Sequence record: PZ445527.1
Reading direction: 5' to 3' (one strand)
Length of the DNA: 64,000 bases
Source: a phage
Translations under genes and position numbers: made by a program
Notes under the pieces: generated by a model
Database searches by the model: none
Told to the model about the DNA's origin: nothing
The model's input: only the letters and a program-made list of their open reading frames with translations
Shown here: positions 5,827 to 38,654 of the stretch, piece after piece
Numbering within the stretch: the first letter of the stretch is position 1
Layout: each line of letters opens with the position of its first letter

Positions 5827-6248
5827 TATTGAGTTACCCCATCACTAATATAAACTTTGCCTTCCATAATACGGAAAGAACTAGCAGCACTACCAACAGC
5901 TGTTCTAGTAATAATTACATCATAGTATCCAGCTAATCTCTGTCTAGGATTATATCTATCTCTTTCTTTGGATGCTTTGGAAGCAATAGTAGTTACAGCA
6001 CTAACGGGTAGACTTATAGATGCTACTCCTTGCTTCGCATCAACAATAGATGTAGTAAAAGATGCTAAAGTTTCAGCCCCATCTTCTAGATTGCTTTTAA
6101 TAGTACCTCTTAAAGAGAAACCAGTAAGGTCTACCGGTTTAGATGTAGAGGGATAAACACTATCATCCACATCCATAAATTGCATAAGTAAACCATAAGG
6201 TACGTTCTCGTCTACTACTAAATCAATAACTCTATTTTCTGTACTCAT
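5826..6248 (-). CDS. collar/baseplate-associated protein (T5 p132-like)
   Basis: 140 aa; position between tail-fibre and pb4-like genes matches T5 order. Confidence 0.55.
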
Positions 6249-6252
6249 TATT

Positions 6253-8355
6253 TTACCTTATATGGATATACCCGTTTTGCAGGTCTATCTTCATTTTGTA
6301 GGATCCCTCTGGGTTAGAGGATAGTGCTGCTGCACGATCATATATAATATTTACACCAATTTGTGATAAGAAAGCATTGTTAGCAACAATTTTACTAGCA
6401 GTTACCGTGCCATTAACTATCATATCCCCGTGTAAAACCATTGCAGGACTAGCCCATGCCGAACCATTCCACTGCCTAGTAAACGCTGTTCCTGGTGCTC
6501 CACTTTTATACTCGGTTAATACATCATATTTAACAGGGCCAGTACCAAAGTTAGATGTAAAGAATGAATTAGCTTGTGAATCATTCCATGCTGTTAAATT
6601 AGCGATAGCAAGAGAATACATTCCTGGACCACGTTGTCCTGTATCTCCTGGCCTACCATCAGCACCAGGTTTACCATCAGCCCCCGGTCTACCATCAACA
6701 CCTTCTGTACCACTCCATTGAACTACGTCTGACCAGCTAGTTCCAGATACTAATTGATTAGTAACAGGATCTAAAGTACCTGTAGAACAGTAAATATTTT
6801 GAGTATTAGATGTTCTATTAGGTGGAGTTTTTGACCAACCTGAAGGTGGATATGCAGGGCTTGTAGGTTTAGCAGGTAGTGAGGTTCCTAGAGTATAGAT
6901 AAATACTGTTTGCTTACCTTGTATACCTGTTGCTATATCGATGTCACCGTTAGGTGTACCAATTACAACCCCACTAGAGATTCTTAATGTATCACCGTCG
7001 TAACGAATGTACTGGGTAGCATTGCCAATATCCAGTTTTGGTTTAGCAGTAGCATTATCCATACCCATCCAGATACCAGATCTTGTATCACCCCAAGTTT
7101 TGCCTTGAGTATAAATTGCTGGATTATCTTGACCAGTTAGATTGGTCATAACAAAATTCGCAGCATTTATAGTTTTAGTGATTACACTACCATCAACGTT
7201 AACTATCTTTTTAATAGGGTCAAAAGATATTGGTGCTTTTCCTTCTGCATCTAGAAGACCTATATTAATAGCACCAGTAGCAGCATCTATCAGGAAAGTT
7301 TGTTTCCAAGTAGAACCATCTTTGATCTTGCCCTTAATATATGCGTAGTTTACCTCAATACCGGTTTCGTTTACAAAACTGTTATCTAGTGGAGTATCTT
7401 CCTTTAGTATAAAAGTTTGTACAGCAGAGTCGGTAGTATCCTGCTTACTTGGTCCCCAGGCAATAGACGACACTTTAAATTTATGCTCTACTTTCCACGG
7501 GAATGATATAATTGTTGCTGATTGGGCAGCACCCACATTAATTTTTTGTGCTTTAGTCCATCCAGTTCTTGCAAACTCTGCTGAATCTATATAGGATAGA
7601 ACAAACTCACGAACATTAGCCCCTGCACCTCTATTCCAATCCCACTGAACACGCAAATCATAGCGTTCTTTACCATCTGCAATGCGCGCTGCTTTAAACT
7701 CAATATTAGTGGGTGCGGTAGGAGGAACAAAATTATAGTTAACTTCAAAGACAGTAGGATACTCATAGTATCCAGATGAATCAATAGTAACACCGTCTGG
7801 TAGGCTTATTTGACCAGAAATTCTTACTTTATAGAATCCGATTGGTACGCCACCAAACATAATAGTTGGCATCAGTGCACCAACGTAATATTTAACCCAC
7901 GGGTTATTGGCATTAGAATTATTCTTTAATTCTATAGTACAATAATCGGCCTCCCCTGTAGTATCTATATAAACTATGGGGGCCCCAACCCCAACATCTA
8001 CTGGTTCTGACTCGCATCGAGCACCTGTGATTCTAGGTGCTGATTTCATTTTAAAAGTTTGCTTATCAGATAGATTAATTCCTATCTGTGCATTAAGAAG
8101 TTCAGAGTCTATTATGGAATCATAAAATGCACCCTGAACTTCATAAGTTGTTGTAGGTTTTAGATTATTAATAGTTACAGAGAAAGTATCAACACCCGTG
8201 AAGTCTCTACGAGTAATATTACTACCTTCTTTTAGCCAAAAAGATCTGCCTATAACGTCATAATCTGAGTAAATAGAATGCTGGATATACGCCAACGTAT
8301 ATCCAGTTAAGACGCTATTTAGAACCATTTTAGCTGGTGCATTATTTGAGATCAT
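6253..8355 (-). CDS. baseplate central fibre protein (pb4-like) with collagen-like repeat
   Basis: 700 aa; Gly-X-Y run [24 protein letters not shown]; synteny. Confidence 0.65.
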
Positions 8356-11205
8356 TTAAATAGTAGCCCAACTAACAGATTGTTCCCCACTTTCCCCTTC
8401 AGCTCGTATCCTAAATCGTAACTTACGATTGATACCTAGAGCACCTGAGTTCAGCAAAGCAAAATCCGCCTTATTATATGTTAATAGATAGTCATAAGTA
8501 TAGGCATCCTCTATCCTAATACTACGAAGCATTCTATCCTGAGAATCATGTATTTCTAGAGTGTAATAGATTTCTGGAATTATTTCTTCCTCAGGTATCT
8601 TATCCCAGGCAAGTTTCACATCTGGACCAACAAATTCAGTCACATCTCCAGAAGCTGTATTAGTTACTCTGAAGTTACTAACTACACTCAAGTTTCTAGC
8701 AGAGTTAAGATCCACGGAAAGAGTAACAGGAGAACTACGTCTACCGTTAATATCAACAGCACGTAGTTCAAAAATAGCTAAACCAGCAGGCTCACCTATA
8801 ATCTCCTGAATCATCCTTTCATTAGGATTATTCTCTAATTGCTGAATTATGTAAGGATCTACATGACCTGAATGAGCTATAGAGTAGTATACTACGTTAT
8901 TAGTAAGACTAGGTAGCCAAGATAGTTCCCCATTTTTACCTATAGCACCTATCATACCACCAGGAGTAGGAGTGTATTTAAAGTCTCTAGGAGGTAGAAC
9001 GTTATTACTAATATCAGGAATATCATTACCACTATTATCTACCTGTTCGGAATTAATAAATACATCTTCCCCGTACTCTTGGAGGACTAGATTAATTTTA
9101 CCATCACGAGTATTTTCTACTTCGTCAACCAGGAAGAACTTGTCTTTCCACCCATAACGCTCATAAGTAAACGCAATCGGATCATTTGGCTCTATACCAA
9201 TGAACTTATAAGGTACTGAGAAGCTAAGCGTACGTGAGTATCTAGATTTTTTAAGCTCTCTATCTGCGTAACTACGAGCAGTGTAGTAGTTAGTAATATT
9301 TGCAAAAGATAGCTGAAGTTTTTTATCCAAACCCTTATCTTGTTCTTTAAACTTAGAGTTATAGAATGTAATAGAGTTTGTTTTCCAACTTAGCGCAGGG
9401 TCTACTAAGGATGCTTGTACTGAGTTAAATTTATTTCTACCAGTAGTATCAGATAAGTCTAAGTCCCCATAAGTATCCAGAAAACTTATCTTCAGAGGAG
9501 TTGTAGAATGCTTCTCTACAGTTATTCTATACTCACCAGATAAGTTATTTATAGCTCCGCCAAAAGAATCCAGTACTCCTTGAACATTTTTAAATACTGA
9601 TTCGGAAGTATCTAATATAGTGTTTAACTGAACTACTTGGCGATGTTCAGAAATAGAATCACTCCAACCAACATATCTCCAATATGGTTGCCAGCTAACC
9701 TGATAAGATTCATCAATTATATCTAGAATTTTTGCTTCTGATATAATCTTTTGTAGGGGGAACTGATCTAGAGTTATATTAGCCCCATAACGTTCAGAGG
9801 TTAGATAGTCCATAAGCTGCCAGATACCGTTAAGGCTAGTTTTATCAGCTTTAACAGACCCATCAGAACTATATACTTTGACTTTCTTACCTTGTACTTC
9901 AGCACTAATTTCTGGAATTTCAGTTCTGTTCTCATTAATAGTAAATCTAACTACAGCGTAGGCTGTGTCTAAGAGCTTATAACGAGAATCCCAGTATTCT
10001 GGTCCATTGCCGTTTTGATTCTGTAAATAGAAACCTTTTCTTTTAGCAATATCCACTAATACTTGAGCTGCTGTCTGGTCTGGTTTGCCATGAAAGGTCC
10101 ATATTCTTATGTCACCATTACCATCATTATACTTATACTCTTGCCCATGAACAGAAGGTTGAGAAGTACTTGTACCAGCAGCTAGTCTATGCATTGTATC
10201 ACCCACTAGTTTCTTACGACCGAAACAGGTTCTAGCATTGGAATCCGTTTCATCGAAACAGATCATTGGGCTGTCCCCAATATAGAAATCTAGGAATCCG
10301 TCAATTTCTCCTTCCGAAAAAGCATAAACTACATACACTATATTAGGGTTATTTAGCTCAGTATCTGCAAAAATAGGGATACCAGGAATTTTCTGAACCC
10401 CATATACAACAGGTATAAATTTAGCAGCTAAGTTAAAGTCTAAATCAACTTCTTTAGTTACAGTCTCATAATACTTTTTAAGACTGTAACTTCTTGATAG
10501 ACCAAAGAGTTTCTTCTTGGACTGAAGTTTATAGCGTTCTTCTTTAACTTGGTATTTAGCTAAGATAGTGGTACTTTTATTAGAGTGGAAGAATCCATAG
10601 TCTTCTTGATATTCAGGACGTTTAGCACCATTAGAAGGCTGTAATTGTCCATTAACAACTTCAAGTCCTCGGTGAGAAGCATCATCGGTATAACGACCAT
10701 TCACCCTATCAAAGTCGTAGAACTGGTTGGAACAGTTCCATGTGATAACAGAGGTTCCTATTCCTGAAGTAGTAACATTATCTTTTATTCCGCCTCCGGT
10801 AATTCTACCACGGAAGAATAATAAAGGGCCGTCTGTACTAGGATCTACTGGAAGAATATTTCCTTCTTCATCAATTATTGCTTGATGTATAGTAATAGTT
10901 CTATCTAAGAAAGATACCCCATTTTGAACTAGTTTTAATACTTCATCTTCTGCTGTACCAGTTATAGTGAAAGATAAACTACCAATAGATAATTGGCGGT
11001 TCTGCTTATGGGAGCTTATACTTTTTACTTTACCTGATCTATATAAGATCCCGTTATAAGTAACATCTCTAAAGTAGTCAGTTAAATAAATATAAGTAGC
11101 AGCAGAGCCAGATGAACTAGGAAGCTCTAAAGCTATAAGACAAGCTGTTTTTAGCTTGTCATGAGTATTAAGATATGTTTTAGCACTATCGAGTATCTGC
11201 TTCAT
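8356..11205 (-). CDS. baseplate hub protein (pb3-like)
   Basis: 949 aa; located between distal tail protein and pb4-like genes. Confidence 0.7.
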   Translation of the reverse strand: MKQILDSAKTYLNTHDKLKTACLIALELPSSSGSAATYIYLTDYFRDVTYNGILYRSGKVKSISSHKQNRQLSIGSLSFTITGTAEDEVLKLVQNGVSFLDRTITIHQAIIDEEGNILPVDPSTDGPLLFFRGRITGGGIKDNVTTSGIGTSVITWNCSNQFYDFDRVNGRYTDDASHRGLEVVNGQLQPSNGAKRPEYQEDYGFFHSNKSTTILAKYQVKEERYKLQSKKKLFGLSRSYSLKKYYETVTKEVDLDFNLAAKFIPVVYGVQKIPGIPIFADTELNNPNIVYVVYAFSEGEIDGFLDFYIGDSPMICFDETDSNARTCFGRKKLVGDTMHRLAAGTSTSQPSVHGQEYKYNDGNGDIRIWTFHGKPDQTAAQVLVDIAKRKGFYLQNQNGNGPEYWDSRYKLLDTAYAVVRFTINENRTEIPEISAEVQGKKVKVYSSDGSVKADKTSLNGIWQLMDYLTSERYGANITLDQFPLQKIISEAKILDIIDESYQVSWQPYWRYVGWSDSISEHRQVVQLNTILDTSESVFKNVQGVLDSFGGAINNLSGEYRITVEKHSTTPLKISFLDTYGDLDLSDTTGRNKFNSVQASLVDPALSWKTNSITFYNSKFKEQDKGLDKKLQLSFANITNYYTARSYADRELKKSRYSRTLSFSVPYKFIGIEPNDPIAFTYERYGWKDKFFLVDEVENTRDGKINLVLQEYGEDVFINSEQVDNSGNDIPDISNNVLPPRDFKYTPTPGGMIGAIGKNGELSWLPSLTNNVVYYSIAHSGHVDPYIIQQLENNPNERMIQEIIGEPAGLAIFELRAVDINGRRSSPVTLSVDLNSARNLSVVSNFRVTNTASGDVTEFVGPDVKLAWDKIPEEEIIPEIYYTLEIHDSQDRMLRSIRIEDAYTYDYLLTYNKADFALLNSGALGINRKLRFRIRAEGESGEQSVSWATI

Positions 11206-30132: not shown

Positions 30133-30243
30133 TTGACTTTTGCCAAATTCTTTGGATTACGTACGCGTGGGTGTGCTCACTACCTCCGGCGAAAATACTT
30201 AGTCTCCTAACCGCCACCCCCGTTACTATTATCATGCTAACTG

Positions 30244-30280
30244 TTTCACCCTGCAACCATTTTAATTGCAAGGTGAAACA
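30244..30280. terminator. long hairpin between convergent genes (candidate bidirectional terminator)
   Basis: GTTTCACCCTGCAA-ccattttaa-TTGCAAGGTGAAAC, 14-bp stem with one mismatch. Confidence 0.5.
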
Positions 30281-30296
30281 ATTTCAACTTTAATTA

Positions 30297-31031
30297 TTAT
30301 GCGACTTTTAGTTTCTCAATATATTGTTGCGGGCTGCAACTATATTCTGCGCGTTCTTCCTCGGTCATACTTTCCCAACATAATTGCAAACGGTCGGCTA
30401 GGAACTGATAATCATTATCATCGTCGAGAGATTCATCGATAAAGGTTTCACCTATCAATGTAACGCCGATTGATAGAATATCGTTAACGGCTTGCGCGTC
30501 CAGCGTTTTAAATCCGTATGATGCCGCCGCCGCCAATACTCCTTTATGGTCGTCGATCATCGTGAAATCAGCGTTCGGATATAGCTGCTTAAATAACTCA
30601 AAATAATGGCTTTTATATATAGCGTCTTTACTGTGGTATATTTCGCTAACTTTATCAGCTTCAAAATATTTATGTAGTGTATCGCGGGAAAATACACGGA
30701 TATTACTATCCCCACGCCCTCGCAGTCCTTGCTTGCGTAGGTAATAATAATCTGATTTGCTCATTAGTCGAGCGGTGCAAATAATGTTTAACGTGTTGGC
30801 GTCATTCATGCATTGGCGCATATATGTAACAAGCGGCAATAGTGTGTCTTGCATTATTAAATCATGTTTACACGCTTCATTCTTATACTTATTTAGATCT
30901 AGATTGCCCTCACTATCAAAGCAAGGCGCTACGCGATGGAATGAATTAACGACCGTGCCGTCAAGATCCCAAATCATGACGCGGGAAATATGCGGGAAAT
31001 TACGGGTAATATTCGTTTTAACTTGATTCAT
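30297..31031 (-). CDS. dmp: 5'-deoxyribonucleotidase (HAD family), T5 Dmp-like
   Basis: 244 aa; HAD motif I WDLDGTVV; size matches T5 Dmp. Confidence 0.8.
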   Translation of the reverse strand: MNQVKTNITRNFPHISRVMIWDLDGTVVNSFHRVAPCFDSEGNLDLNKYKNEACKHDLIMQDTLLPLVTYMRQCMNDANTLNIICTARLMSKSDYYYLRKQGLRGRGDSNIRVFSRDTLHKYFEADKVSEIYHSKDAIYKSHYFELFKQLYPNADFTMIDDHKGVLAAAASYGFKTLDAQAVNDILSIGVTLIGETFIDESLDDDNDYQFLADRLQLCWESMTEEERAEYSCSPQQYIEKLKVA

Positions 31032-31105
31032 TTTGTTACGTTCTCCATTAAAGGGATTAAATTAAATTAATTCAGCCCACTGGATGGGCTGGACTATTCC
31101 AGCTA

Positions 31106-31501
31106 TTAAAGGCCAGACGCTAACGCATCAGCGATGACGGTAATATCTTCGCCCGATACGCTGGAACGAATCCCCGCACAAGTATATACTTTTGCGCTCG
31201 CTAGCTGGTCATCAAGGCAAGCGGGGCAAGGCGTGACAACTGCAAAGGCTAACCCTGATTTCACCGCGTCAATAATGGTCGTTTCCTGCTTCATCGTGTC
31301 AATGTAAACGCCTTTCGCCTTGATGCGGCTGGATAGTTTGCCCGTGGTATAGGCGAAAGTAGTGATCTGTAGCGCCTCATTAAACTCGATTAAATCATCG
31401 ACAACGTGACCGGCCTCAACGTGATACCGCTCACCATTAGAATAAACCAGAACGATAGAAGACTGAGCGCGATCGAATGGAATACGGTTAGAAATAGCCA
31501 T
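31106..31501 (-). CDS. hypothetical pre-early protein
   Basis: 131 aa ORF between dmp and A1. Confidence 0.5.
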   Translation of the reverse strand: MAISNRIPFDRAQSSIVLVYSNGERYHVEAGHVVDDLIEFNEALQITTFAYTTGKLSSRIKAKGVYIDTMKQETTIIDAVKSGLAFAVVTPCPACLDDQLASAKVYTCAGIRSSVSGEDITVIADALASGL

Positions 31502-31570
31502 TTTTATAACTCCAATTAATTTAATAAACTTTTATAGGGGCGGTATATTTCAACCGCCAACCTGATTTAT

Positions 31571-33235
31571 TTACGCAAAAAATTTACCGTTCTTAAAGTC
31601 GATCAAAGTGCGCTGACCGTTTGCATAGGTAATTAAATGCGTTTGCGTCCAGCTTGACGCGCCAACGTTGTAACCCATGTCCAGACTACCAGCCACGCCG
31701 GCGGTATATACCCCGCCGTAAATGCTGGCGGTATGAGTGTGCCCCGTGTTTAATTTGCCCAATTTCTTAAATTGCTTCGGATTGCCGCGGCTCCCGTTTA
31801 TGCCATTGTGACCGTGTACGCCGCACTCAATGCCTGCAATCTTGAAAGATTGGTCAGTCGTTAGAAAAATGGCGTTAAATTCACAACCTGCAACCTTGCG
31901 CAACGCATAATCAAGCACGTTGAAAGTATCGTCTTTTTCTGCAATAGCTCCGTAAATTGCAGCATTAAGGCGGTGATATAGTTCCGCGTTCGCTGGGTCG
32001 TCTTTAATGTTAGCATTACGATCATCAAGCCAACGGGATAGCGCCAAATCGTGATTCGATTCAACAATGATTGTTTGAGAAAAATCGCGCTCCATCGATT
32101 CCAGCACGCGACCGGTATCGATAAGATCATCCAGAATTTTATCACGTCCAGCGGCGTACTGTTTTGCTAGGAATACACCGCTGGCGCGATTGTGATGGTT
32201 GCGTGATGTAAAATCATGCACGTCATGCACGAATTGATATTTTGGTTTAAGAATATCAAGCAAGCTATTTTCGCCAGCCCATGACGCTGCGGCGCAATCG
32301 TCATCTAATTTTTCGGCGTGTATGTCACCATATTGCAAGCCTAAAACATGCCCCGACGTTTCATAGCATCCGGCGGGAGTGGCGCAAATATTCAAATCGT
32401 AAAACACGCCGCTTTCATCCATCGTTTCAAGCTGGCGAACAAAAAATTCTCCGTCTTCGTCGAACTCGACAACAAGCGCGCCAAAGTTATGCAGCGCCTC
32501 CGCTTTCTGTCCTGCTTTCTGCTGGATGTAATTTTTTAGCGTTGCCGTTCCGGTTGAATACATACGGCGCACTACTTCACCTTTTAAAGCTGGAACGCTT
32601 TCGGCGGTGATTTTAGCCGCTCCAATTGCCAGACCTTCAAGATTAAGCGCGGTTGCAGTTTCAGCGAATCCAGAAAGCGGATAGTCTGCGGTAGGTAAAA
32701 CGTTAATTTCAGCCATGAAAGCAAAGCGGCGGTTATTTAAAAATACATTCTTATTGCAGATATATTTGTCAAAAGCGGAATCATATTTGATTCCGTTGGC
32801 GCCCTCGCCATTTTGAAAACCGTTTTTGTTATAAATAAACTTGCTAACCAGCAAATCAGCGCCGATAAATTGGGCATATTGCTCCAGTGAGGCCAAAAAG
32901 TTTTTATGCGGGAACGTATTATTCTGAATCGATGTAATAATAAAGCGTTTTCCCTGCTTTACTTCCCATTGCTCGATCGTGCTAGAAATAACTCCAGCGG
33001 CTTCAGGGCGGTCATCGTTTTTTATGGCTTTTGCTACTTTCGCCGCTTTTGGTTTCGCTGGTTTATTTGCTTCCAGCCAGTCACAAATCGCAGTGGAATG
33101 TTTTGCAGTATCGTAAACCGCTTTTGATATATCGTCGCATACTTCCAGCTTAGTAGCGCGCAGACGTTTACCGTAGAAATTGAAATCAGCGGCAAGGTTG
33201 AGGATCTGGGTTTGTTTTTCTGCGGAAATAACCAT
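31571..33235 (-). CDS. A1: A1-like pre-early protein (calcineurin-like metallophosphoesterase / nuclease)
   Basis: 554 aa; metallophosphatase motifs GDIHAE, HDVHDF, ESNHD, GHTH. Confidence 0.8.
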   Translation of the reverse strand: MVISAEKQTQILNLAADFNFYGKRLRATKLEVCDDISKAVYDTAKHSTAICDWLEANKPAKPKAAKVAKAIKNDDRPEAAGVISSTIEQWEVKQGKRFIITSIQNNTFPHKNFLASLEQYAQFIGADLLVSKFIYNKNGFQNGEGANGIKYDSAFDKYICNKNVFLNNRRFAFMAEINVLPTADYPLSGFAETATALNLEGLAIGAAKITAESVPALKGEVVRRMYSTGTATLKNYIQQKAGQKAEALHNFGALVVEFDEDGEFFVRQLETMDESGVFYDLNICATPAGCYETSGHVLGLQYGDIHAEKLDDDCAAASWAGENSLLDILKPKYQFVHDVHDFTSRNHHNRASGVFLAKQYAAGRDKILDDLIDTGRVLESMERDFSQTIIVESNHDLALSRWLDDRNANIKDDPANAELYHRLNAAIYGAIAEKDDTFNVLDYALRKVAGCEFNAIFLTTDQSFKIAGIECGVHGHNGINGSRGNPKQFKKLGKLNTGHTHTASIYGGVYTAGVAGSLDMGYNVGASSWTQTHLITYANGQRTLIDFKNGKFFA

Positions 33236-33332
33236 AATAATAAAACTCCATTAAAGGGATTAAAAACGTTTGTTATTGGCAAATATTGCCAGATATAACG
33301 CCTCAAATAATAGGCGTTATAATTTGCAATAT

Positions 33333-33548
33333 TTAACTAATTGGCATTAGGCTAGAACTAACCCCACAAGCAATGGCGGCTATTAAACAAAGTAAGCCCA
33401 ACCGCTTTGCTAATTTAGCTTTACGCTTAAAATAATACGAATCCAGATCATTTTGGAAGTATGCAAATAATAATGAGGCCGCCATAATAAATAAGCCTAG
33501 AATGAGGGATTCAGTAGGGTAAAAGACCATTTTAATAACTCCAGTCAA
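33333..33548 (-). CDS. small membrane protein
   Basis: 71 aa, two predicted TM helices. Confidence 0.4.
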   Translation of the reverse strand: MTGVIKMVFYPTESLILGLFIMAASLLFAYFQNDLDSYYFKRKAKLAKRLGLLCLIAAIACGVSSSLMPIS

Positions 33549-33586
33549 AGGAAATTATAGCGGGGAATATTCCCCGCTAATTAAAT

Positions 33587-33994
33587 TTATTCGCCTGCGG
33601 CTTGTTTTACTTCATCGGCAACGCCTAACAGCTGCGCCACGGCGTCCAGCGTTTCTAATTTTGCGCTTTCCAGGGATGCCAGATCGTCAACGTCTTTGAT
33701 AATGCCGGAATCAATGGCATGTTTTGCAATAACGCGCACGTAATGCGCTTTGCGGATAGAACTACCGCCGCCAACTTTGCGCGGCTTATCGCTTTTCTGA
33801 TACGCTTTCGCGCTGGTCAATTTTGAGCGAACGGACACGGGAGAAGTCGCGCCAACTGCTTTTGCAATTTCTCTCAGGCCGTCGCTGTTGGCGAACTCCA
33901 AGCCGTTCTCATTGATTAGCTGTTGATACATGGTAACAGCCTGCTGGGTGTTTTCTTCATTCCAAGAGAATTTTGCGGTTTTAACGTTAGTCAT
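33587..33994 (-). CDS. A2: A2-like pre-early DNA-binding protein
   Basis: 135 aa; position upstream of A1 as in T5. Confidence 0.65.
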   Translation of the reverse strand: MTNVKTAKFSWNEENTQQAVTMYQQLINENGLEFANSDGLREIAKAVGATSPVSVRSKLTSAKAYQKSDKPRKVGGGSSIRKAHYVRVIAKHAIDSGIIKDVDDLASLESAKLETLDAVAQLLGVADEVKQAAGE

Positions 33995-34090
33995 GATATA
34001 AACTCCAATTAATTTAATTTAAGGGATAAGATTAACACAATGTTAATCGTTATATACCCCGAACTGCTGGGGTATATAAAGTTAACACTA

Positions 34091-34342
34091 TTACGCTACA
34101 GCTTCCCATTTTTCGTTACGTTGAACAACCTTTACAACGTCGCCGGATTTAACGCGAACGTTATAAATAGTTTTCCCGTTGTTACTCCGTTCCGTTTCAG
34201 CGTAAACCGCATCAATTACATCAAACGGCATAAGCGACGCGCCTTTAATGCGTTCGGCTTTTCCGGTTAGTTCATCCGTTTTAGTAACGAAAGGAATGAA
34301 GACGGATTGACCAATTTTCGGCGCATTAGTAACGTTTTTCAT
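34091..34342 (-). CDS. hypothetical pre-early protein
   Basis: 83 aa ORF upstream of A2. Confidence 0.45.
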   Translation of the reverse strand: MKNVTNAPKIGQSVFIPFVTKTDELTGKAERIKGASLMPFDVIDAVYAETERSNNGKTIYNVRVKSGDVVKVVQRNEKWEAVA

Positions 34343-34569
34343 AGTATAAACTCCAGTTTATTTCGTGGATTGTTCCGCATTACCTGCTAAAAAGTAACAG
34401 GTAATAAGAAAAAATCCGCTCGCCAATATAATCAATTTAAAGAACTCCACTCAGGCCGCTATATCCCGTTAGGGGGCGGGGCACATTTTGGCAAGTACCG
34501 GCCGTCAAATTGTATCAAGTTATCGCTCTTATCGAACTGGGTACATCTTAAAGCCTATCGGCTAGGGTG

Positions 34570-34773
34570 TCAAACTATTTTTTGCAGTTTTTTATGATTT
34601 TCCTTCAGGTCGATCATAATATTTCGCCAGATCATTTCTAGACCTTGCTGGCGGCCTTTCTTGTACTGCTTAAATCGATATTTTACCGATCTTTGCGCTA
34701 TTGTCAATAGCTTTCTAGTATTGCCATCCAGTTTTTTGGCTGGTTTACCAGTGACTAATAAAGTTTGTTTCAT
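34570..34773 (-). CDS. hypothetical basic protein
   Basis: 67 aa Lys/Arg-rich ORF. Confidence 0.3.
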   Translation of the reverse strand: MKQTLLVTGKPAKKLDGNTRKLLTIAQRSVKYRFKQYKKGRQQGLEMIWRNIMIDLKENHKKLQKIV

Positions 34774-35446
34774 ATCTGCGATCCCTTATAATGTAATAAG
34801 TTTGCCGCCGATAGACTTTAAGATATACCCAATTTTTAAAGAGCGCGGCGGTAAACTTCCCGCCGTGTAGTTCGTCATTGCCGCCCTACGAGATAAATAA
34901 TAACAAATGCCAAAAATGGCGCAACCTTATTTTTGTAAAGAAACGTAAAGAAAGCAAATACTCGCACCGCGTCCGGCGATTGCCCAAGTTTAAAGGAAAC
35001 GGGCGCGCGGATACCATAAAATCCAGCAGATAGGCAAGTAATTTTTTCATTTATATTTGCCTTGCCCTACTTGATTTTTCTAGAATCCATCAGGTGACGA
35101 TAAACGGGCTATCCCTTTATGATGGGATACCTGAAAAATTTACCTCGTTGTAGGACGTTTTAGGCCGCTTATTTTCGAGTTAACAAATATTTAACAAAAG
35201 CAAAATTGAAAAATAGTTGTAAAAGGTATTGACTTTTAAAAATCAAGATTAAACGAGTTATTTTATAAAATTAATTAATTGACTTTTATTTGTTGTTGTG
35301 TACTAGAAAGATAGCAGACTAATAATTACTAGAATGATAATCATGCTGGTGGATTGTAACAGCCTGAACCATTAGCAGACTACTAATTCCGGAAAATCTC
35401 ATTAGCCAACTAACTATTTCCTGAGTTATAATATAAACATAAATTA

Positions 35447-35600
35447 ATGAGAAATAATAACTATAAAAATAATCACCATTATAATAATAACTATAAAAAT
35501 AATAACTATAAAAATAATCGCCATTATAATAATAATTATAAAAATAATCGCCATTATAATAATAACTATAAAAATAATCACCATTATAATAATAACTATA
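35447..35600. repeat. tandem direct repeats, about 26-27 bp unit, about 5.5 copies
   Basis: unit ATAATAA(C/T)TATAAAAATAATC(A/G)CCATT repeated head to tail. Confidence 0.85.
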
Positions 35601-35639
35601 AGAAACTATCGGTCTAAGTGAGAATCACTATCATTTAAG

Positions 35640-35721
35640 TTATTCACAAAGTTATCCACAGCACAAAATGATTTGACACGATAGGCGGCGATATAAGGGC
35701 TTATCCACAGACTTATCCACA
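35640..35721 (+). promoter_or_regulatory. cluster of DnaA boxes
   Basis: TTATTCACA (35640), TTATCCACA at 35652, 35701 and 35713 (three perfect consensus boxes), all same orientation. Confidence 0.75.
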
Positions 35722-36041
35722 GGTTTTCCTACTGTATAAATATACAGGGTAAAAAGGTAGTGTTAACGACTGCAATCAATTTTAAGCGGCCTAAATCGCT
35801 TTCTAACGAGCTAAATGATGCGGGGTAATATTAAAGTAAAGCCTCCACCCGTTGCCCTGGGTGAAGGGTATTGATATTTCTACTTTTACCGTTAACAACG
35901 AAAACGAGTAATAATTAACCTAATGTAAAGTTTTGTAAAGGTCGCCATAATCGGTGGCTTTTTTGTTATAATGCCCCTACACCGTTTGAGGACGGTTGAA
36001 AATTTTCCCAAAAAAATTTTGGAGGCTTAAAATGGTTGCGT

Positions 36042-36262
36042 ATTCTTCTTCTGACGCTCTTTTCACTGGAAAAGGCTGGGTATCAAATCGCTGGATCATT
36101 CAAGAAATGGTGCGGGAGTTCGGCATTGCTAAAACTTACACTACCATTCAGGCGCTTTATGATAATGATCAAATCGATCAGCAAACGGCGGGCTTTTTGC
36201 TGGATACCCTGAAGGCGGAACATTGTACTAAAAAACAAGCCGCCAAAATTGCTTTAATGTAA
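36042..36262 (+). CDS. hypothetical protein (73 aa)
   Basis: RBS GGAGG 6 nt upstream of ATG 36042; first gene of + strand cassette between inverted DnaA-box arms. Confidence 0.5.
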
Positions 36263-36304
36263 CTAATAACGGGGCGTTATTTTCGCCCCACTAACTAGGG
36301 GGGA

Positions 36305-36457
36305 ATGAAAATGGTTATTTTTCGATCAATTCTGGCGGGTATCTTGGGCGCTGTTTTATCACTTTTTGCCATAGCTTTCGGCGTTCACGCGGTTATTGTT
36401 GGCGCGGGTATCGCCGTTTTTTCTTATTTGCTGGGCTGCATGAGTAAAGGGGAATAA
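36305..36457 (+). CDS. small membrane protein (50 aa)
   Basis: two hydrophobic helices; G-rich RBS. Confidence 0.4.
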   Translation: MKMVIFRSILAGILGAVLSLFAIAFGVHAVIVGAGIAVFSYLLGCMSKGE

Positions 36458-36459
36458 AA

Positions 36460-36672
36460 ATGATCCGCAACGTTTCTCTTGCTCGTTCGAAAGGCTTTAA
36501 GCTGGTGGACGTTAACACGTTCGAGCGGGAAGATTGTAAAATTGAATATATAGCACGGAATAAAAACGCCTTCCGTGTTACTGAAAAGAAATTCGATAAG
36601 CGCGGCAACGTGATCGCTGAAACGGTTAGACACTTTGCCACCTTTTACGCGGCCTTTCGTGGGGTACTATGA
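36460..36672 (+). CDS. hypothetical protein (70 aa)
   Basis: ORF tightly packed after previous gene. Confidence 0.5.
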   Translation: MIRNVSLARSKGFKLVDVNTFEREDCKIEYIARNKNAFRVTEKKFDKRGNVIAETVRHFATFYAAFRGVL

Positions 36673-36794
36673 AAAGCGTTGTTATTGTTATCCTTGCAAT
36701 GGTTGGCGGTTTTACCGCCACCTTATTTAAGAATGATCCCCTTTCATTGGGGATTTTTATGCTTTTATCTGGTTACCTGATTGGGAGGTTATAA
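36669..36794 (+). CDS. small membrane protein (41 aa)
   Basis: ATGA start/stop overlap with previous ORF; TM helix. Confidence 0.4.
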   Translation: MKSVVIVILAMVGGFTATLFKNDPLSLGIFMLLSGYLIGRL

Positions 36795-36795
36795 A

Positions 36796-37140
36796 ATGGT
36801 AATTTATGAAGGCAATCGCTTTGTTACTAATTGCCGCCCGGCATTGTTAGCAAACTACTTAAACCAGCTTTCTCCTGAATATAAGGGCGTTGTTAATATT
36901 TACGAGGGAAAAGCGCATTATAAGATTAATGCGGTCGTTGCCCGTGAACTAGCGTTTCAATTTTTGACCTTTGCATCTTGTGATATTCAGGTCATGGGGG
37001 AGGCGTTAATCGCAGAAAATGAAAATGATTTTATTAATATTTTTCGCAAAGTATGCACCGAGCGCCTGATAATGAAAGGCGCATATATTCAATCCACTGC
37101 GGATAGTATTGAAACAGCGTTTCGAAAGGTGGCACAATGA
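36796..37140 (+). CDS. hypothetical protein (114 aa)
   Basis: RBS GGGAGG then ATG 36796. Confidence 0.5.
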   Translation: MVIYEGNRFVTNCRPALLANYLNQLSPEYKGVVNIYEGKAHYKINAVVARELAFQFLTFASCDIQVMGEALIAENENDFINIFRKVCTERLIMKGAYIQSTADSIETAFRKVAQ

Positions 37141-37155
37141 AATTATATATTTTCG

Positions 37156-37434
37156 TTGGTAATAGTAAGGCAGCTAATGATTCCGCTGGGGGCGATAACG
37201 TTCGCCACTATTGGCAAAAATATATTTACTAGGGTTATTATGAGCAATAAAATTATTATAACTAAAACTACCACAATGGTAGACGTTTTTTACGTGCCCG
37301 ATACGCCGGAAAACCGGCAAGCGGTCGAGCGGGGTGATTATGGTAGCGTTATTTATGATGCCGATGGCTATTATCGGCATTTGGTCGATTCCTATGGGGA
37401 AGAGGAGAAGATCACGCATCGACTACCAGACTAA
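37156..37434 (+). CDS. hypothetical protein
   Basis: 92 aa ORF, start uncertain. Confidence 0.35.
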   Translation: MVIVRQLMIPLGAITFATIGKNIFTRVIMSNKIIITKTTTMVDVFYVPDTPENRQAVERGDYGSVIYDADGYYRHLVDSYGEEEKITHRLPD

Positions 37435-37469
37435 TAATAACGGGGCGCAACTATCAGGGAGTGCCCCCA

Positions 37470-37507
37470 ATTCTCAAATGAGAATCATTCTCAAATGAGA
37501 ATGATTC
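37470..37507. repeat. overlapping near-perfect palindromes TCAAATGAGAAT(C/G)ATTCTCATTTGA
   Basis: dyad symmetry read directly; flanked by GGGGCGC...GTGCCCC inverted repeat. Confidence 0.8.
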
Positions 37508-37747
37508 TCATTTGACCGCGCCCGCGATGGTTAGCCTGCTAATGATTAGGGTGTTACGTGTCGCCTTGTGTGATCGTTAGCTCGCTAACTAATTTTCAAG
37601 CCTCCTCCAATTTTGCCCTTGTTTTAGTATCCCCGCCAAAATTAAACGCGTTAGAATGCGATTCAGGACGTTTTAGCGGTATATTAGAATTATTCACTGC
37701 ATAGGAATACTGTATAAATATACAGTAGAATAACCTGGGGATAAGTC

Positions 37748-37816
37748 TGTGGATAACGCTTCAAAATGGCTAGGATTCTGTCAAGTCAAATCGTGCTGTT
37801 GATAAGTCTGTGGATA
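37748..37816 (-). promoter_or_regulatory. DnaA boxes in inverted orientation
   Basis: TGTGGATAA at 37748-37756 and 37808-37816 (reverse complement of TTATCCACA), preceded by palindrome TACTGTATAAATATACAGTA (37708-37727). Confidence 0.75.
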
Positions 37817-37839
37817 ACTTAAATAACAGTGTTTCTCAC

Positions 37840-38047
37840 TTCCGTTTTTAAATGCGAATCATTATCATTCGTATTCCACTATCTAACCGATAATCATTCC
37901 ACTTTTTAAATGAGAATCGTTTCACTTCTTGAATAGTTCTCATTCCCTTTCTTAAATGCGAATAATTATCATTCGCATTTCACTTTTTAAATGAGATTGA
38001 TTCTCATTATCATTCGCATTCAGGCGAGCAGGGCAATTGCCCTGCGC
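37840..38047. repeat. array of AATG(C/A)GAAT...ATTCGCATT palindromic motifs ending in perfect 18-bp palindrome GCAGGGCAATTGCCCTGC
   Basis: repeated TTTTTAAATG(A/C)GAAT units and dyad-symmetric AATGCGAATAATTATCATTCGCATT. Confidence 0.75.
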
Positions 38048-38050
38048 TTT

Positions 38051-38276
38051 TGTGCAAATCCGACATCTGCTCCAAGGGTTACGTGCTGGCGTGTATGTGC
38101 AAATCCGACAATTTTTGGTAGTGTGCAAATCCGACCCGAAAAATTTTTATAGTGTGCAAATCCGACGACGAATCTGTCTCCCAAAAACTCCAGCAATCAC
38201 GAACTGCGTTCGAATCCTGTGGGATATGTGCAAATCCGACATGGTTTTTCTAGGATTAAGATGTGCGAATCCGACA
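38051..38276 (+). repeat. six direct 14-mer iterons GTGCAAATCCGACA (one variant GTGCGAATCCGACA)
   Basis: copies at 38051, 38097, 38123, 38154, 38228, 38263; irregular 25-75 bp spacing; same orientation. Confidence 0.85.
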
Positions 38277-38605
38277 AGATTTTTGTGACTTCGATTGAAG
38301 GGTGTGTGATTGTGTGGGTTTGAGGAGAAGATGAGAGAGCGAGAGAAATTTTGGGACTAGAAGGATGTGGGCGCAGGATTGGTGCGGAGCACCTGATTTG
38401 CGGGGATTTTGGGGAAGATGTGGGATAATTTGGGAAGATTTGAGATAGGTGCAGAAAAAGTGAAATTTTATTAGCAAAATGGGGCAAAATAGCTTGACAA
38501 GTGAAAATTTCTGTGGCTCTAAAAACTCAGGCAATCATGGGCCTTCGGCCCGAAATAATGCTGCTATTTTCAGGAGAGTAGGAGTTCCTAAAAACTTAGG
38601 CGTTT

Positions 38606-38654
38606 GTGCAAATCCTACCATAAATTTCTAGAATATCAATGTGCAAATCCGACA
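38606..38654 (+). repeat. two further copies of the 14-mer iteron
   Basis: GTGCAAATCCTAC (38606) and GTGCAAATCCGACA (38641). Confidence 0.8.

What the first reader, a model, noticed from the sequence alone, without database searches (positions are those of the whole stretch)
35630..37825. Inverted DnaA-box plus palindrome arms bracket a 2-kb + strand cassette inside the pre-early region
Left arm (35640-35747): DnaA-type 9-mers TTATTCACA and TTATCCACA (x3) followed by GATTTGAC and the palindrome CTGTATAAATATACAG. Right arm (37690-37816): the same elements mostly in inverted orientation (palindrome TACTGTATAAATATACAGTA, GATTTGAC, TGTGGATAA x2). Aligning the left arm against the reverse complement of the right arm gives extended similarity over about 120 bp. 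Between the arms lie six tightly packed + strand ORFs (36042-37434), three of them tiny membrane proteins, transcribed opposite to the flanking dmp/A1/A2 genes. This looks like a discrete module (origin-like or host-DnaA-recruiting element, injection-stop region, or formerly mobile cassette) rather than a simple intergenic spacer.
Basis: partly seen in the sequence, partly recalled or inferred. Interest (0 to 1): 0.78.

Follow-up and report, generated by a model that had tools for sequence, protein, structure and literature searches.

The report
T5 injection-stop repeats with LexA sites
These are the already described inverted repeats that flank a small gene block in the first DNA a T5-like phage injects, so they are ordinary for this family, but each copy also carries a near-perfect binding site for the host SOS repressor LexA that I could not find mentioned anywhere.

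Summary
Arms 35616-35747 and 37710-37841 are 132 nt and 77% complementary (gapped score 121 against 18±2 for shuffles). They hold 6 of the window's 8 consensus DnaA boxes.

It is not new. The window is a T5-like phage, and the arms are T5's IRC-spacer-IRD and IRD'-spacer-IRC' repeats. These are annotated in the T5 GenBank record. Davison (bioRxiv 866236) analysed them and proposed eight paired DnaA boxes as the injection-stop signal.

The enclosed block is the rightward pre-early operon. It has seven ORFs, not six, including the T5.015-type Ung-dependent nickase.

Origin and mobile-cassette readings are not supported:
- The two arms do not evolve in concert.
- The cassette is never inverted.
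- No copies occur elsewhere.
- A published viable T5 deletion, mapped from its primers, removes the left arm and the cassette.

One thing appears new. The palindrome at the inner end of each arm is a top-grade LexA operator, scoring 24.6 and 22.4 bits, against 12.7 for the next best site in the window. LexA-type boxes beside DnaA boxes flank the same cassette in Pectobacterium, Klebsiella, Proteus and Vibrio relatives.

Most likely the arms are host-protein (DnaA plus LexA) loading arrays that act as boundary or pause elements. This mechanism is inferred, not shown.

The parts
35616..35747 (.). Left arm, equivalent to T5 IRC-spacer-IRD (Repeat Region 2)
   Evidence: Inverted repeat I1. 76% identical to T5 AY587007 6022-6235. 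T5 GenBank annotates IRC at 6022-6060 and IRD at 6112-6152.
35618..35639 (+). Outer conserved block GTGAGAAtCACTATCATTTAAG; binder unknown
   Evidence: GTGAGAA is at least 95% conserved over 64 arm sequences. The same motif is seen in Proteus phage 2 and Vibrio JSF10. It is within 2 mismatches of the Fur 7-1-7 pattern.
35640..35660 (+). DnaA box pair 1: TTATTCACA aag TTATCCACA
35673..35678 (+). Invariant TTGACA block
   Evidence: TTGAC is at least 95% conserved in all 64 arms. No -10 element lies at the proper spacing (own reading).
35701..35721 (+). DnaA box pair 2: TTATCCACA gac TTATCCACA
35730..35749 (.). Left LexA-type operator TACTGTATAAATATACAGGG
   Evidence: 3 mismatches to TACTG(TA)5CAGTA. 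PWM score 22.4 bits. It begins 10 bp after DnaA pair 2 and is overlapped by a - strand promoter-like site, TTAACA-16-TATATT.
35784..35825 (.). Inner extension of the inverted repeat (homologous to T5 IRB'; CTAAAACGC..TCTAACG block)
   Evidence: I2; T5 sequence 6184-6209. A similar block lies in the Vibrio JSF10 inverted repeat.
35937..35972 (+). Hairpin with T-run, followed by an extended -10 (TGtTATAAT, 35964-35972): the likely promoter of the cassette, in the position of T5P5
   Evidence: Terminator-like hit. The extended -10 is my own reading. T5P5 position.
36023..36262 (+). Cassette ORF1, 79 aa
   Evidence: phrog_5145, E=1.4e-50. 98% nt identity to T5 at 7536.
36305..36457 (+). Cassette ORF2, 50 aa, two hydrophobic helices
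   Evidence: phrog_5607. Probably the homologue of the T5 two-TM lytic gene '013'; this is an inference.
36460..36672 (+). Cassette ORF3, 70 aa: T5.015-type Ung-dependent AP-site nickase
   Evidence: phrog_4227, E=1.1e-49. RefSeq product name in HdH2. Present in all 37 related loci with cassette hits.
36669..36794 (+). Cassette ORF4, 41 aa, hydrophobic
   Evidence: phrog_19184. Present or absent among relatives.
36796..37140 (+). Cassette ORF5, 114 aa
   Evidence: phrog_4379, E=4e-64. Present in all 37 related loci with cassette hits.
37137..37232 (+). Cassette ORF6, 31 aa
   Evidence: phrog_22819
37240..37434 (+). Cassette ORF7, 64 aa
   Evidence: phrog_6973
37474..37515 (.). Perfect palindrome with 20-nt arms, made of DRC-type units (TGAGAATCATTCTCA)
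   Evidence: I7; TRF period 17; Fur-like 7-1-7 hits
37632..37673 (.). Inner extension of the inverted repeat (partner of 35784-35825)
   Evidence: I2
37708..37727 (.). Right LexA-type operator TACTGTATAAATATACAGTA, equivalent to T5 'palindrome D'
   Evidence: 1 mismatch to the consensus. PWM score 24.6 bits, above all 18 E. coli training sites. Identical to T5 9330-9349.
37710..37841 (.). Right arm, equivalent to T5 IRD'-spacer-IRC' (Repeat Region 3, the injection-stop candidate)
   Evidence: I1. 94% identical to T5 9247-9482. T5 annotation.
37736..37756 (-). DnaA pair: TTATCCACA (37748-37756) plus the variant TTATCCCCA (37736-37744)
37797..37817 (-). DnaA pair: TTATCCACA (37809-37817) plus the variant TTATCAACA (37797-37805)
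37845..38021 (.). DRC-type repeats and palindromes to the right of the right arm (T5 DRC and palE-I)
   Evidence: Families D4, D5, D8 and pair I5; T5 annotation
38028..38045 (+). Hairpin GCAGGGCAATTGCCCTGC followed by GCTTTTG, equivalent to T5 palindrome J and the position of the 7.9% nick
   Evidence: Terminator-like hit. T5 palJ at 9650-9666 and nick at 9661-9668.
38044..38654 (+). Seven TGTGCAAATCCGAC repeats (T5 DRD type), near the expected end of the terminal repeat
   Evidence: Family D3; T5 DRD annotation

Best explanation
Identity (secure). The arms are this phage's copies of the T5-family IRC-spacer-IRD and IRD'-spacer-IRC' repeats. They are two old, diverged, inverted copies of a roughly 130-bp non-coding array. 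Together they bracket the rightward pre-early operon on the first-step-transfer (FST) DNA.

Anatomy (shown). From the outer end inward, each arm carries a GTGAGAA..CAC block, a pair of DnaA boxes, a TTGACA block, a second pair of DnaA boxes and, 10 bp further in, a LexA operator of the highest grade.

Mechanism (inferred). As the FST DNA enters the cell, host DnaA and LexA load onto these arrays and turn them into protein-bound boundary elements. DnaA is partly membrane-associated according to the Davison preprint. The right array sits next to the DRC/DRD repeats and the 7.9% nick position. It is the important copy and forms part of the complex that holds DNA transfer at the injection stop. 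It may also stop RNA polymerase leaving the rightward operon from running into, and pulling in, DNA that has not yet been injected. The left array lies between the two divergent pre-early operons. It is an accessory copy that modulates pre-early transcription or provides a secondary pause point. The cassette itself is ordinary accessory host-takeover cargo, including the Ung-dependent nickase and small membrane proteins, and is not part of the mechanism.
For: Identity:
- 447 phage records match the region.
- The right arm is 94% and the left arm 76% identical to the T5 arms.
- The T5 GenBank record annotates IRC, IRD, IRD', IRC' and palindrome D.
- Davison describes eight DnaA boxes in pairs 3 bp apart and proposes them as the injection stop signal.

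DnaA sites:
- 6 of the window's 8 consensus boxes lie in the arms.
- In 32+32 distinct arms from relatives, all four box positions keep consensus or near-consensus boxes.

LexA sites:
- The boxes have 1 and 3 mismatches to TACTG(TA)5CAGTA, where 0.02 such sites are expected by chance.
- With a PWM built from 18 E. coli LexA boxes listed in PMC3009722, they score 24.6 and 22.4 bits. The training sites score 16.6-24.4, and the next best site in the 64 kb scores 12.7.
- The half-sites ACTGTATA and TATACA are among the five longest runs that are at least 95% conserved over 64 arm sequences, while the central AA/TT flips between copies.
- Strict CTGT-N8-ACAG boxes, mostly next to DnaA boxes, flank the divergent cassette in My1, Klebsiella Roth50, Proteus phage 2 and Vibrio JSF10 and 234P7B: 11 found against 1.56 expected, P=8e-7.
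- The identical 16-mer lies 19-70 nt upstream of DinI-family, Tum-like and SRAP genes in prophage contigs.

The right arm matters more than the left:
- Orthologous right arms are 85-97% identical; left arms are 75-95%.
- The primers of the viable T5 'hegG to 017' deletion map to T5 5360-5388 and 9082-9107. That deletion therefore removes the left arm and the cassette but keeps the right arm.
- Davison reports that type 4 phages lack IRC/IRD.

Secondary pause: Rhoades' second FST band at about 5.8 kb, as cited by Davison.
Against: - No experiment shows that DnaA or LexA binds this DNA. A 2023 paper states that experimental studies of the DnaA boxes are lacking.
- T5-like phages are propagated on E. 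coli DH5a (rows H22 and H26). That strain is recA1 (my own knowledge), so LexA cleavage cannot be required for growth.
- Vibrio phage Hades has DnaA-box clusters but no recognisable LexA box.
- 4 of 32 left arms carry ACAA in place of ACAG.
- The LexA boxes do not overlap the annotated T5 promoters P4 and P5. Promoter-like matches over the boxes are weak or not conserved in T5.
- An inverted arrangement is not what a purely directional DNA-entry brake would predict.
Confidence: 0.45

Rival explanations
1. The arms are purely transcriptional operators. They are LexA- and DnaA-responsive control regions or insulators for the toxic rightward pre-early operon. They tune its expression to the host's SOS and replication state, or block read-through into and out of it. 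On this view the physical injection stop lies elsewhere, for example in the DRC/DRD repeats or at the nick.
For: - Both sites are classical repressor and roadblock sites.
- The mirror symmetry is centred on the operon, as expected for elements that act on RNA polymerase moving in opposite directions.
- A - strand promoter-like site, TTAACA-16-TATATT, overlaps the left box. A conserved + strand promoter-like site, TAGCCA-18-TATAAT, points into the left arm.
- Early genes to the right of the repeat are on the - strand and are transcribed towards the right arm.
- Several cassette genes are toxic when expressed alone.
- In Proteus phage 2 the A2-side LexA box is kept without adjacent DnaA boxes.
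Against: - The boxes lie more than 200 bp from the annotated cassette promoters.
- No mapped transcript ends were available.
- The high conservation of the right arm, which sits next to the shear point and nick, fits a role in DNA transfer.
Confidence: 0.2
2. Davison's two-arm 'Gordian knot'. Both arms bind membrane DnaA and join into one complex. That complex is the injection stop, and A1/A2 release it by cutting the DNA at a palindrome.
For: The eight ordered DnaA boxes are conserved in both arms across the family. A second FST band is reported near IRC. A1 and A2 are required for second-step transfer.
Against: - The viable T5 deletion mapped to about 5389-9081 removes the whole left arm.
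- Type 4 and Proteus phages lack the left DnaA boxes.
- The distance between the arms varies from 1.5 to 3.9 kb.
- The arms show no concerted evolution.
- The candidate 'restriction' palindrome D is explained better as a LexA operator.
Confidence: 0.1
3. The motifs are sites for phage proteins, either the DNA-binding A2 dimer or A1. Their resemblance to host DnaA and LexA boxes is incidental or is mimicry.
For: A2 is a conserved dsDNA-binding dimer needed for second-step transfer. The invariant GTGAGAA and TTGAC blocks match no host consensus that I tested.
Against: - The palindrome stays on the host LexA consensus from Escherichia phages to Vibrio phages, whose A1 is only 31-34% identical.
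- Only the uninformative centre of the palindrome varies.
- The same 16-mer serves upstream of DinI-family genes; dinI is a known SOS gene.
Confidence: 0.1
4. The module is a DnaA-dependent replication origin, or alternatively a relic of a mobile element with terminal inverted repeats.
For: DnaA-box clusters in opposite orientation recall the two halves of oriC (my own knowledge). An AT-rich 15-bp tandem array abuts the left arm. The 132-nt inverted repeats flank a 2-kb block whose content varies among relatives.
Against: - Davison's preprint cites T5 origins mapped near the genome centre, with replication genes not expressed at the FST stage.
- The AT-rich array varies from 0 to about 8 or more units and is absent from T5.
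- The cassette encodes no transposase or recombinase.
- No target-site duplication is visible at the arm ends.
- The cassette is never inverted.
- No other copies occur in the window, in E. coli genomes or in plasmids.
Confidence: 0.04

Closest known systems
Bacteriophage T5 IRC-spacer-IRD / IRD'-spacer-IRC' inverted repeats (Repeat Regions 2 and 3 of the left terminal repeat; GenBank AY587007; Davison, bioRxiv 10.1101/866236)
   Same: The position, order of elements, paired DnaA boxes 3 bp apart, 61-bp register, palindrome D and flanking DRC/DRD repeats all match. The right arm is 94% and the left arm 76% identical to T5.
   Different: This phage has all eight boxes; T5 has seven according to Davison. 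It lacks T5 ORF011/012, so its cassette is shorter. It carries an AT-rich tandem array in the place where T5 has hegG.
LexA (SOS) operators of E. coli and of enterobacterial prophage genes (dinI, tum-type antirepressors)
   Same: The site is a CTGT-N8-ACAG palindrome one mismatch from TACTG(TA)5CAGTA. Its PWM score is at or above that of bona fide sites. The identical 16-mer lies upstream of DinI-family genes.
   Different: Here the operator sits in a strictly virulent phage, in non-coding DNA. It is not demonstrably over a promoter. It is fused at a fixed 10-bp distance to a DnaA-box array and is present as an inverted pair 2 kb apart.
Chromosomal DnaA-box clusters (oriC, datA, DARS)
   Same: Ordered arrays mix consensus and weaker DnaA boxes in a fixed register. 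The two sub-arrays have opposite orientation (comparison with oriC from my own knowledge).
   Different: There is no conserved unwinding element, the arrays are 2 kb apart, and according to the literature cited replication does not start here.
Transcription-coupled genome entry of phage T7 (my own knowledge)
   Same: Only a leading segment of the genome enters first. The rest depends on events on that segment.
   Different: In T7, RNA polymerase pulls the DNA in. In T5, entry is arrested and restarted by A1/A2. A roadblock function of the right arm against polymerase-driven entry is my inference only.

Membership tests
T5-type IRC/IRD inverted repeats of the FST region | Two inverted copies of about 131 bp. 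One lies between the divergent pre-early operons. [quoted passage not shown] | tested here: met
   Arms 35616-35747 and 37710-37841. Gene context dmp, A1 and A2 on the - strand and the cassette on the + strand. DRC- and DRD-type repeats to the right.
T5-type IRC/IRD inverted repeats of the FST region | Sequence homology to the T5 arms | tested here: met
   Right arm 94.1% over 236 nt; left arm 75.8% over 219 nt, against AY587007
T5-type IRC/IRD inverted repeats of the FST region | Eight DnaA or DnaA* boxes in four pairs separated by 3 bp, with a constant spacer | tested here: met
   6 consensus boxes plus TTATCCCCA and TTATCAACA. The pairs are 61 bp apart in both arms.
T5-type IRC/IRD inverted repeats of the FST region | Acts as, or within, the injection stop signal | not testable with these tools
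   This rests on position and conservation only, and is still a hypothesis in the literature.
LexA (SOS) operator | 16-bp CTGT-N8-ACAG palindrome matching TACTG(TA)5CAGTA | tested here: met
   1 and 3 mismatches; these are the only such sites in 64 kb
LexA (SOS) operator | Score within the range of experimentally supported E. coli sites | tested here: met
   24.6 and 22.4 bits against 16.6-24.4 for 18 training sites taken from PMC3009722. The window background is at most 12.7 bits.
LexA (SOS) operator | Overlaps a promoter, so that LexA binding represses it | tested here: inconclusive
   A - strand TTAACA-16-TATATT site overlaps the left box, but that flank differs in T5. Only 8/12-grade matches lie over the right box (own reading).
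LexA (SOS) operator | Bound by LexA, with SOS-dependent output | not testable with these tools
   Needs EMSA, ChIP or transcript data
DnaA-dependent replication origin | DnaA-box cluster next to a conserved AT-rich unwinding element | tested here: not met
   The boxes are present. The adjacent AT-rich 15-bp array (35452-35601) varies in copy number and is absent from T5 and others.
DnaA-dependent replication origin | Replication initiates there | not testable with these tools
   Literature cited places T5 origins near the genome centre
Transposon- or MITE-like cassette with terminal inverted repeats | Encodes or depends on a recombinase, has target-site duplications, and occurs in multiple or variable genomic locations | tested here: not met
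   No recombinase family among the seven ORFs. No duplication at the arm ends. Fixed locus and orientation in 37 loci. No copies elsewhere.

The most novel reading that the evidence does not exclude
Each arm is a composite DnaA-LexA operator array that has been conserved since before the Demerecviridae subfamilies diverged. On this reading the host SOS repressor LexA, and not only DnaA, loads onto the first-entering DNA of these strictly virulent phages. There it takes part in setting the boundary of the first-step transfer or in timing pre-early expression. LexA would then be a previously unrecognised host factor in the unsolved T5 injection-stop problem.
Probability: 0.35. Interest if true: 0.7.

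Novelty: already known. Interest (0 to 1): 0.4.

Why it matters
The finding as submitted rediscovers a feature that has been mapped in T5 since the 1980s. On its own it adds nothing.

What could matter is the LexA reading. How T5 stops after injecting 8% of its genome is still unexplained, and a 2023 paper says the DnaA-box hypothesis has never been tested. Top-grade LexA operators fused to the DnaA arrays are conserved from Escherichia phages to Vibrio phages. They offer a second, easily manipulated host factor and two 16-bp targets for point mutation. This makes the role of the arms directly testable with standard host mutants (lexA(Def), lexA(Ind-), dnaA(ts)) and with the phage engineering already established for T5.

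It would also be an unusual case of a strictly virulent phage family keeping SOS operators.

Tried and rejected
- Replication origin: rejected (literature; the AT-rich array is not conserved).
- Mobile cassette or invertible segment: rejected. There is no recombinase. The orientation is fixed in 37 loci. No other copies occur in the window, in E. coli genomes or in plasmids, apart from one 33-nt chance hit.
- Concerted evolution or gene conversion between the arms: rejected. Arms within a genome are 73-81% alike, whereas most orthologous arms are 88-97% alike.
- Structured RNA: no Rfam match better than E=0.07, far below the gathering scores.
- TTGACA block as a -35 element: no -10 at a usable spacing in either arm (own reading).
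- Promoters over the LexA boxes: ambiguous, so not used as evidence.
- Fur boxes: DRC-type palindromes match TGATAATnATTATCA with 2 mismatches, 8 hits against 1.05 expected. However, the hits are copies of one repeat family, and the only perfect hit lies inside the dmp gene. This is recorded as a lead only.
- Priority check for the LexA reading: nothing was found in the searchable library. The 2015 Davison review could not be opened and the 1987 Gene paper is not in the library. An earlier mention therefore cannot be excluded.
Full report
**1. Observation**

The two arms exist and are far beyond chance. The repeat finder reports arms 35616-35747 and 37710-37841, 132 nt, 77% complementary, with 1962 nt between them. 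A second, inner pair lies at 35784-35825 and 37632-37673. A gapped local alignment of the left arm against the reverse complement of the right arm scores 121, against 17.9 ± 2.3 (maximum 28) for 500 shuffles.

Of the 8 consensus DnaA boxes (TTWTNCACA) in the 64-kb window, 6 lie in the arms. With the one-mismatch boxes TTATCCCCA and TTATCAACA in the right arm, there are four pairs. Each pair has a 3-bp gap, and the pairs sit 61 bp apart in both arms. The palindrome CTGTATAAATATACAG occurs only at the inner end of each arm.

The enclosed + strand block has seven ORFs, not six, from 36023 to 37434. All seven match PHROG families.

**2. What it is**

The window is a T5-like phage. The region matches 447 phage records, mostly Salmonella and Escherichia Tequintavirus and Epseptimavirus. 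The neighbouring - strand genes are dmp, A1 and A2.

The T5 GenBank record AY587007 already annotates the same elements:
- inverted repeat C (6022-6060) and D (6112-6152);
- palindrome D (9330-9349);
- inverted repeats D' (9332-9372) and C' (9424-9462);
- the DRC and DRD repeats and the 7.9% nick.

The window's right arm is 94% identical to T5 9247-9482. The left arm is 76% identical to T5 6022-6235.

Davison's preprint (10.1101/866236) compares 25 T5-like phages. It describes the 131-bp IRC-spacer-IRD and IRD'-spacer-IRC' repeats and their eight DnaA boxes 'always in pairs separated by 3 bp'. It proposes that membrane-bound DnaA holds these boxes and so stops injection. Later papers repeat this as an untested proposal. 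The finding as written is therefore a rediscovery.

**3. The cassette**

The block is the rightward pre-early operon.
- ORF3 (36460-36672) belongs to the family of the T5.015 Ung-dependent abasic-site nickase (phrog_4227, E=1e-49; RefSeq name).
- ORF2 and ORF4 are small hydrophobic proteins.
- A hairpin followed by an extended -10 (TGtTATAAT, 35964-35972) precedes ORF1, in the position of T5's putative promoter P5.

Among 37 related loci that carry cassette genes, ORF3 and ORF5 are always present. The other ORFs come and go, and every gene is in the same orientation as here.

A 2026 preprint reports that thirteen of the 17 T5 pre-early genes are dispensable, and that several are toxic when expressed alone. 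RNA-seq of the Tequintavirus Bas33 shows that the pre-early genes are transcribed.

**4. Comparative behaviour of the arms**

I retrieved 40 IMG/VR loci through A2 homology. I also retrieved representatives of the other Demerecviridae lineages through A1 homology. Both arms were found in 39 of the 40 A2-retrieved loci. The exception, L163, has only 1.9 kb of flank on the arm side.

Most orthologous arms are 88-97% (right) or 75-95% (left) identical. The two arms of one genome are only 73-81% alike. The arms are therefore not homogenised by recombination. They look like an old duplication in which each copy is held by selection.

The distance between the arms ranges from about 1.5 to 3.9 kb.

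In an alignment of 32 distinct left and 32 distinct right arms, the runs that are at least 95% conserved are GTGAGAA, TTGAC, ACAGA (in the second DnaA pair), ACTGTATA and TATACA. The DnaA positions alternate between consensus boxes and one- or two-mismatch boxes. The second box of the right arm is never consensus.

**5. A feature I could not find described: the palindrome is a LexA operator**

Match to the consensus:
- TACTGTATAAATATACAGTA (37708-37727, T5 palindrome D) differs at one central base from the E. coli SOS-box consensus TACTGTATATATATACAGTA.
- The left copy differs at three bases.
- Only 0.02 such sites are expected by chance in the window.

PWM score. I built a PWM from 18 E. coli LexA boxes listed in PMC3009722.
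- The two sites score 24.6 and 22.4 bits.
- The training sites score 16.6-24.4.
- The next best site in the 64 kb scores 12.7.

Use of the same sequence elsewhere. The identical 16-mer lies 19-70 nt upstream of DinI-family, Tum-like (DinI-domain) and SRAP genes in many prophage contigs. dinI is a classical SOS gene.

Variation among relatives. The centre of the palindrome flips between AAAT and ATTT, while CTGT and ACAG are kept in 27 of 32 left arms and 29 of 32 right arms.

Distant relatives. Strict CTGT-N8-ACAG boxes with TA-rich centres flank the divergent cassette, mostly beside DnaA boxes, in:
- Pectobacterium phage My1;
- Klebsiella phage Roth50;
- Proteus phage 2;
- Vibrio phages JSF10 and 234P7B.

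Eleven boxes were found against 1.56 expected (P=8e-7). Nine of them have TA-rich centres and flank the cassette. Six lie within 31 bp, start to start, of a consensus DnaA box.

Further details:
- In the enterobacterial phages the gap between the DnaA pair and the LexA core is a constant 10-11 bp.
- Proteus phage 2 shows the whole architecture with a diverged spacer: GTGAGAAACACTATC, then TTATCCACA, then TTATCAACA-ag-TTATTCACA, then CTGTATATAATTACAG.
- Vibrio phage Hades has the DnaA clusters but no LexA box.

Priority. Davison's preprint never mentions LexA or SOS. It treats palindrome D only as a possible restriction site. Four full-text searches found no paper linking LexA with T5-like phages (and the find). 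The 2015 review could not be opened and the 1987 Gene paper is not in the library, so priority is not certain.

**6. Published genetics that bears on the arms**

The primers for the T5 'hegG to 017' deletion (supplement) map to AY587007 5360-5388, with one mismatch, and to 9082-9107. The deletion of about 5389-9081 therefore removes the entire left arm, the left LexA box and the whole cassette. It keeps the right arm. The mutant carrying it, T5 ΔLΔR, also has deletions in the leftward operon. It is viable with small plaques.

This is my inference from the primer positions. The authors do not discuss the repeats. It agrees with Davison's note that type 4 phages lack IRC and IRD. Pairing of the two arms therefore cannot be essential.

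**7. How it most likely works**

Shown: the anatomy, the conservation, the quality of the sites, and the dispensability of the left arm and cassette.

Inferred: host DnaA and LexA occupy the arrays as soon as the first-step DNA enters, making protein-loaded boundary elements. The right array lies immediately to the left of the DRC/DRD repeats and the nick position. I take it to be the functional core, contributing to the arrest of DNA transfer. It may also block RNA polymerase that leaves the rightward operon towards DNA not yet injected. The left array, in the divergent promoter region, would be accessory. I put this at about 0.45.

The main rival is that the arms are only transcriptional operators or insulators for the toxic operon (0.2). 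Their mirror symmetry about the operon favours something that acts on both sides of it. Early genes to the right are transcribed towards the right arm.

Arguments against any essential role of LexA cleavage:
- T5-like phages are grown on DH5a, which is recA1 (my own knowledge).
- The boxes do not sit on the annotated promoters.

**8. Rejected readings**

- Origin: the literature places T5 origins mid-genome. The AT-rich 15-bp array beside the left arm varies in copy number and is absent from T5.
- Mobile element: no recombinase, no target duplication, fixed orientation, and no copies in the window, in 5,426 E. coli genomes or in 72,556 plasmids.
- Structured RNA: none.

**9. Verdict**

The element is already known. 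The LexA-operator reading is the one new and testable point, and it gives the finding a moderate rather than a low score.

Noticed in passing
window 37479-38012, 35619-35633 and 30406-30420: Palindromes of the DRC repeat family (TGAGAATCATTCTCA and similar) match the Fur 7-1-7 box TGATAATnATTATCA with 2 mismatches or fewer. There are 8 hits in the window against 1.05 expected, all in the pre-early region. The only perfect match lies inside the dmp coding sequence. T5 uses the Fur-regulated FhuA receptor (my own knowledge). The hits are copies of one repeat family, so they are not independent.
   Followed up: partly
window 35452-35601: An AT-rich tandem array (15-bp unit AAATAATAACTATAA, about 10 copies, GC 27%) sits directly to the left of the left arm. 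Among relatives the copy number runs from 0 to about 8 or more. T5-type phages, whose left flank has a different sequence, lack it.
   Followed up: yes
window 35403-35432 (+): A promoter-like site, TAGCCA-18-TATAAT, points rightward into the left arm. The sequence TTAGCCAACTAACTAT...TATAAT is conserved in most relatives, including T5. It is not among the promoters annotated in the T5 record.
   Followed up: partly
window 35618-35639 and 37818-37841; L126 5268-5285; L127 10944-10960: The outer block GTGAGAAnCACTnTCA is conserved from Escherichia phages to Proteus and Vibrio phages and matches no host-factor consensus that I tested. It is a candidate site for the conserved phage proteins A2 or A1.
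   Followed up: no
L127 (Vibrio phage JSF10) 7691-7724 and 10559-10592: A 34-nt, 91% complementary inverted repeat flanks this phage's divergent cassette. It carries a LexA-like box with one degenerate half-site, plus the block CTCTAAAACGCTCTA, which resembles the inner extension of the T5-type arms (35784-35825).
   Followed up: partly
window 38028-38052: The hairpin GCAGGGCAATTGCCCTGC followed by GCTTTTG is the equivalent of T5 palindrome J and of the annotated 7.9% single-strand nick site. Seven TGTGCAAATCCGAC (DRD-type) repeats follow, up to 38654.
   Followed up: partly
window 1-30170 compared with 30170-38600: By comparison with T5, the terminal-repeat-like pre-early block starts near 30170, just beyond the 3' end of dmp, and is preceded by about 30 kb of other phage genes. 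The source record is therefore probably a permuted assembly with a single copy of the terminal repeat. Two further consensus DnaA boxes (27321 and 27557) lie inside a 595-aa ORF.
   Followed up: no
window 37474-37515: A perfect palindrome with 20-nt arms, made of DRC-type units, lies inside the arms, between the cassette and the right arm. In the T5 record the annotated DRC copies lie only to the right of IRC'.
   Followed up: no
alignment, second DnaA box of the right arm: In all 32 distinct right arms this position is a non-consensus box (TTATCAACA or TTATTAACA in 27 of them), while its partner is usually consensus. This fixed strong/weak pattern resembles ordered DnaA loading arrays.
   Followed up: partly
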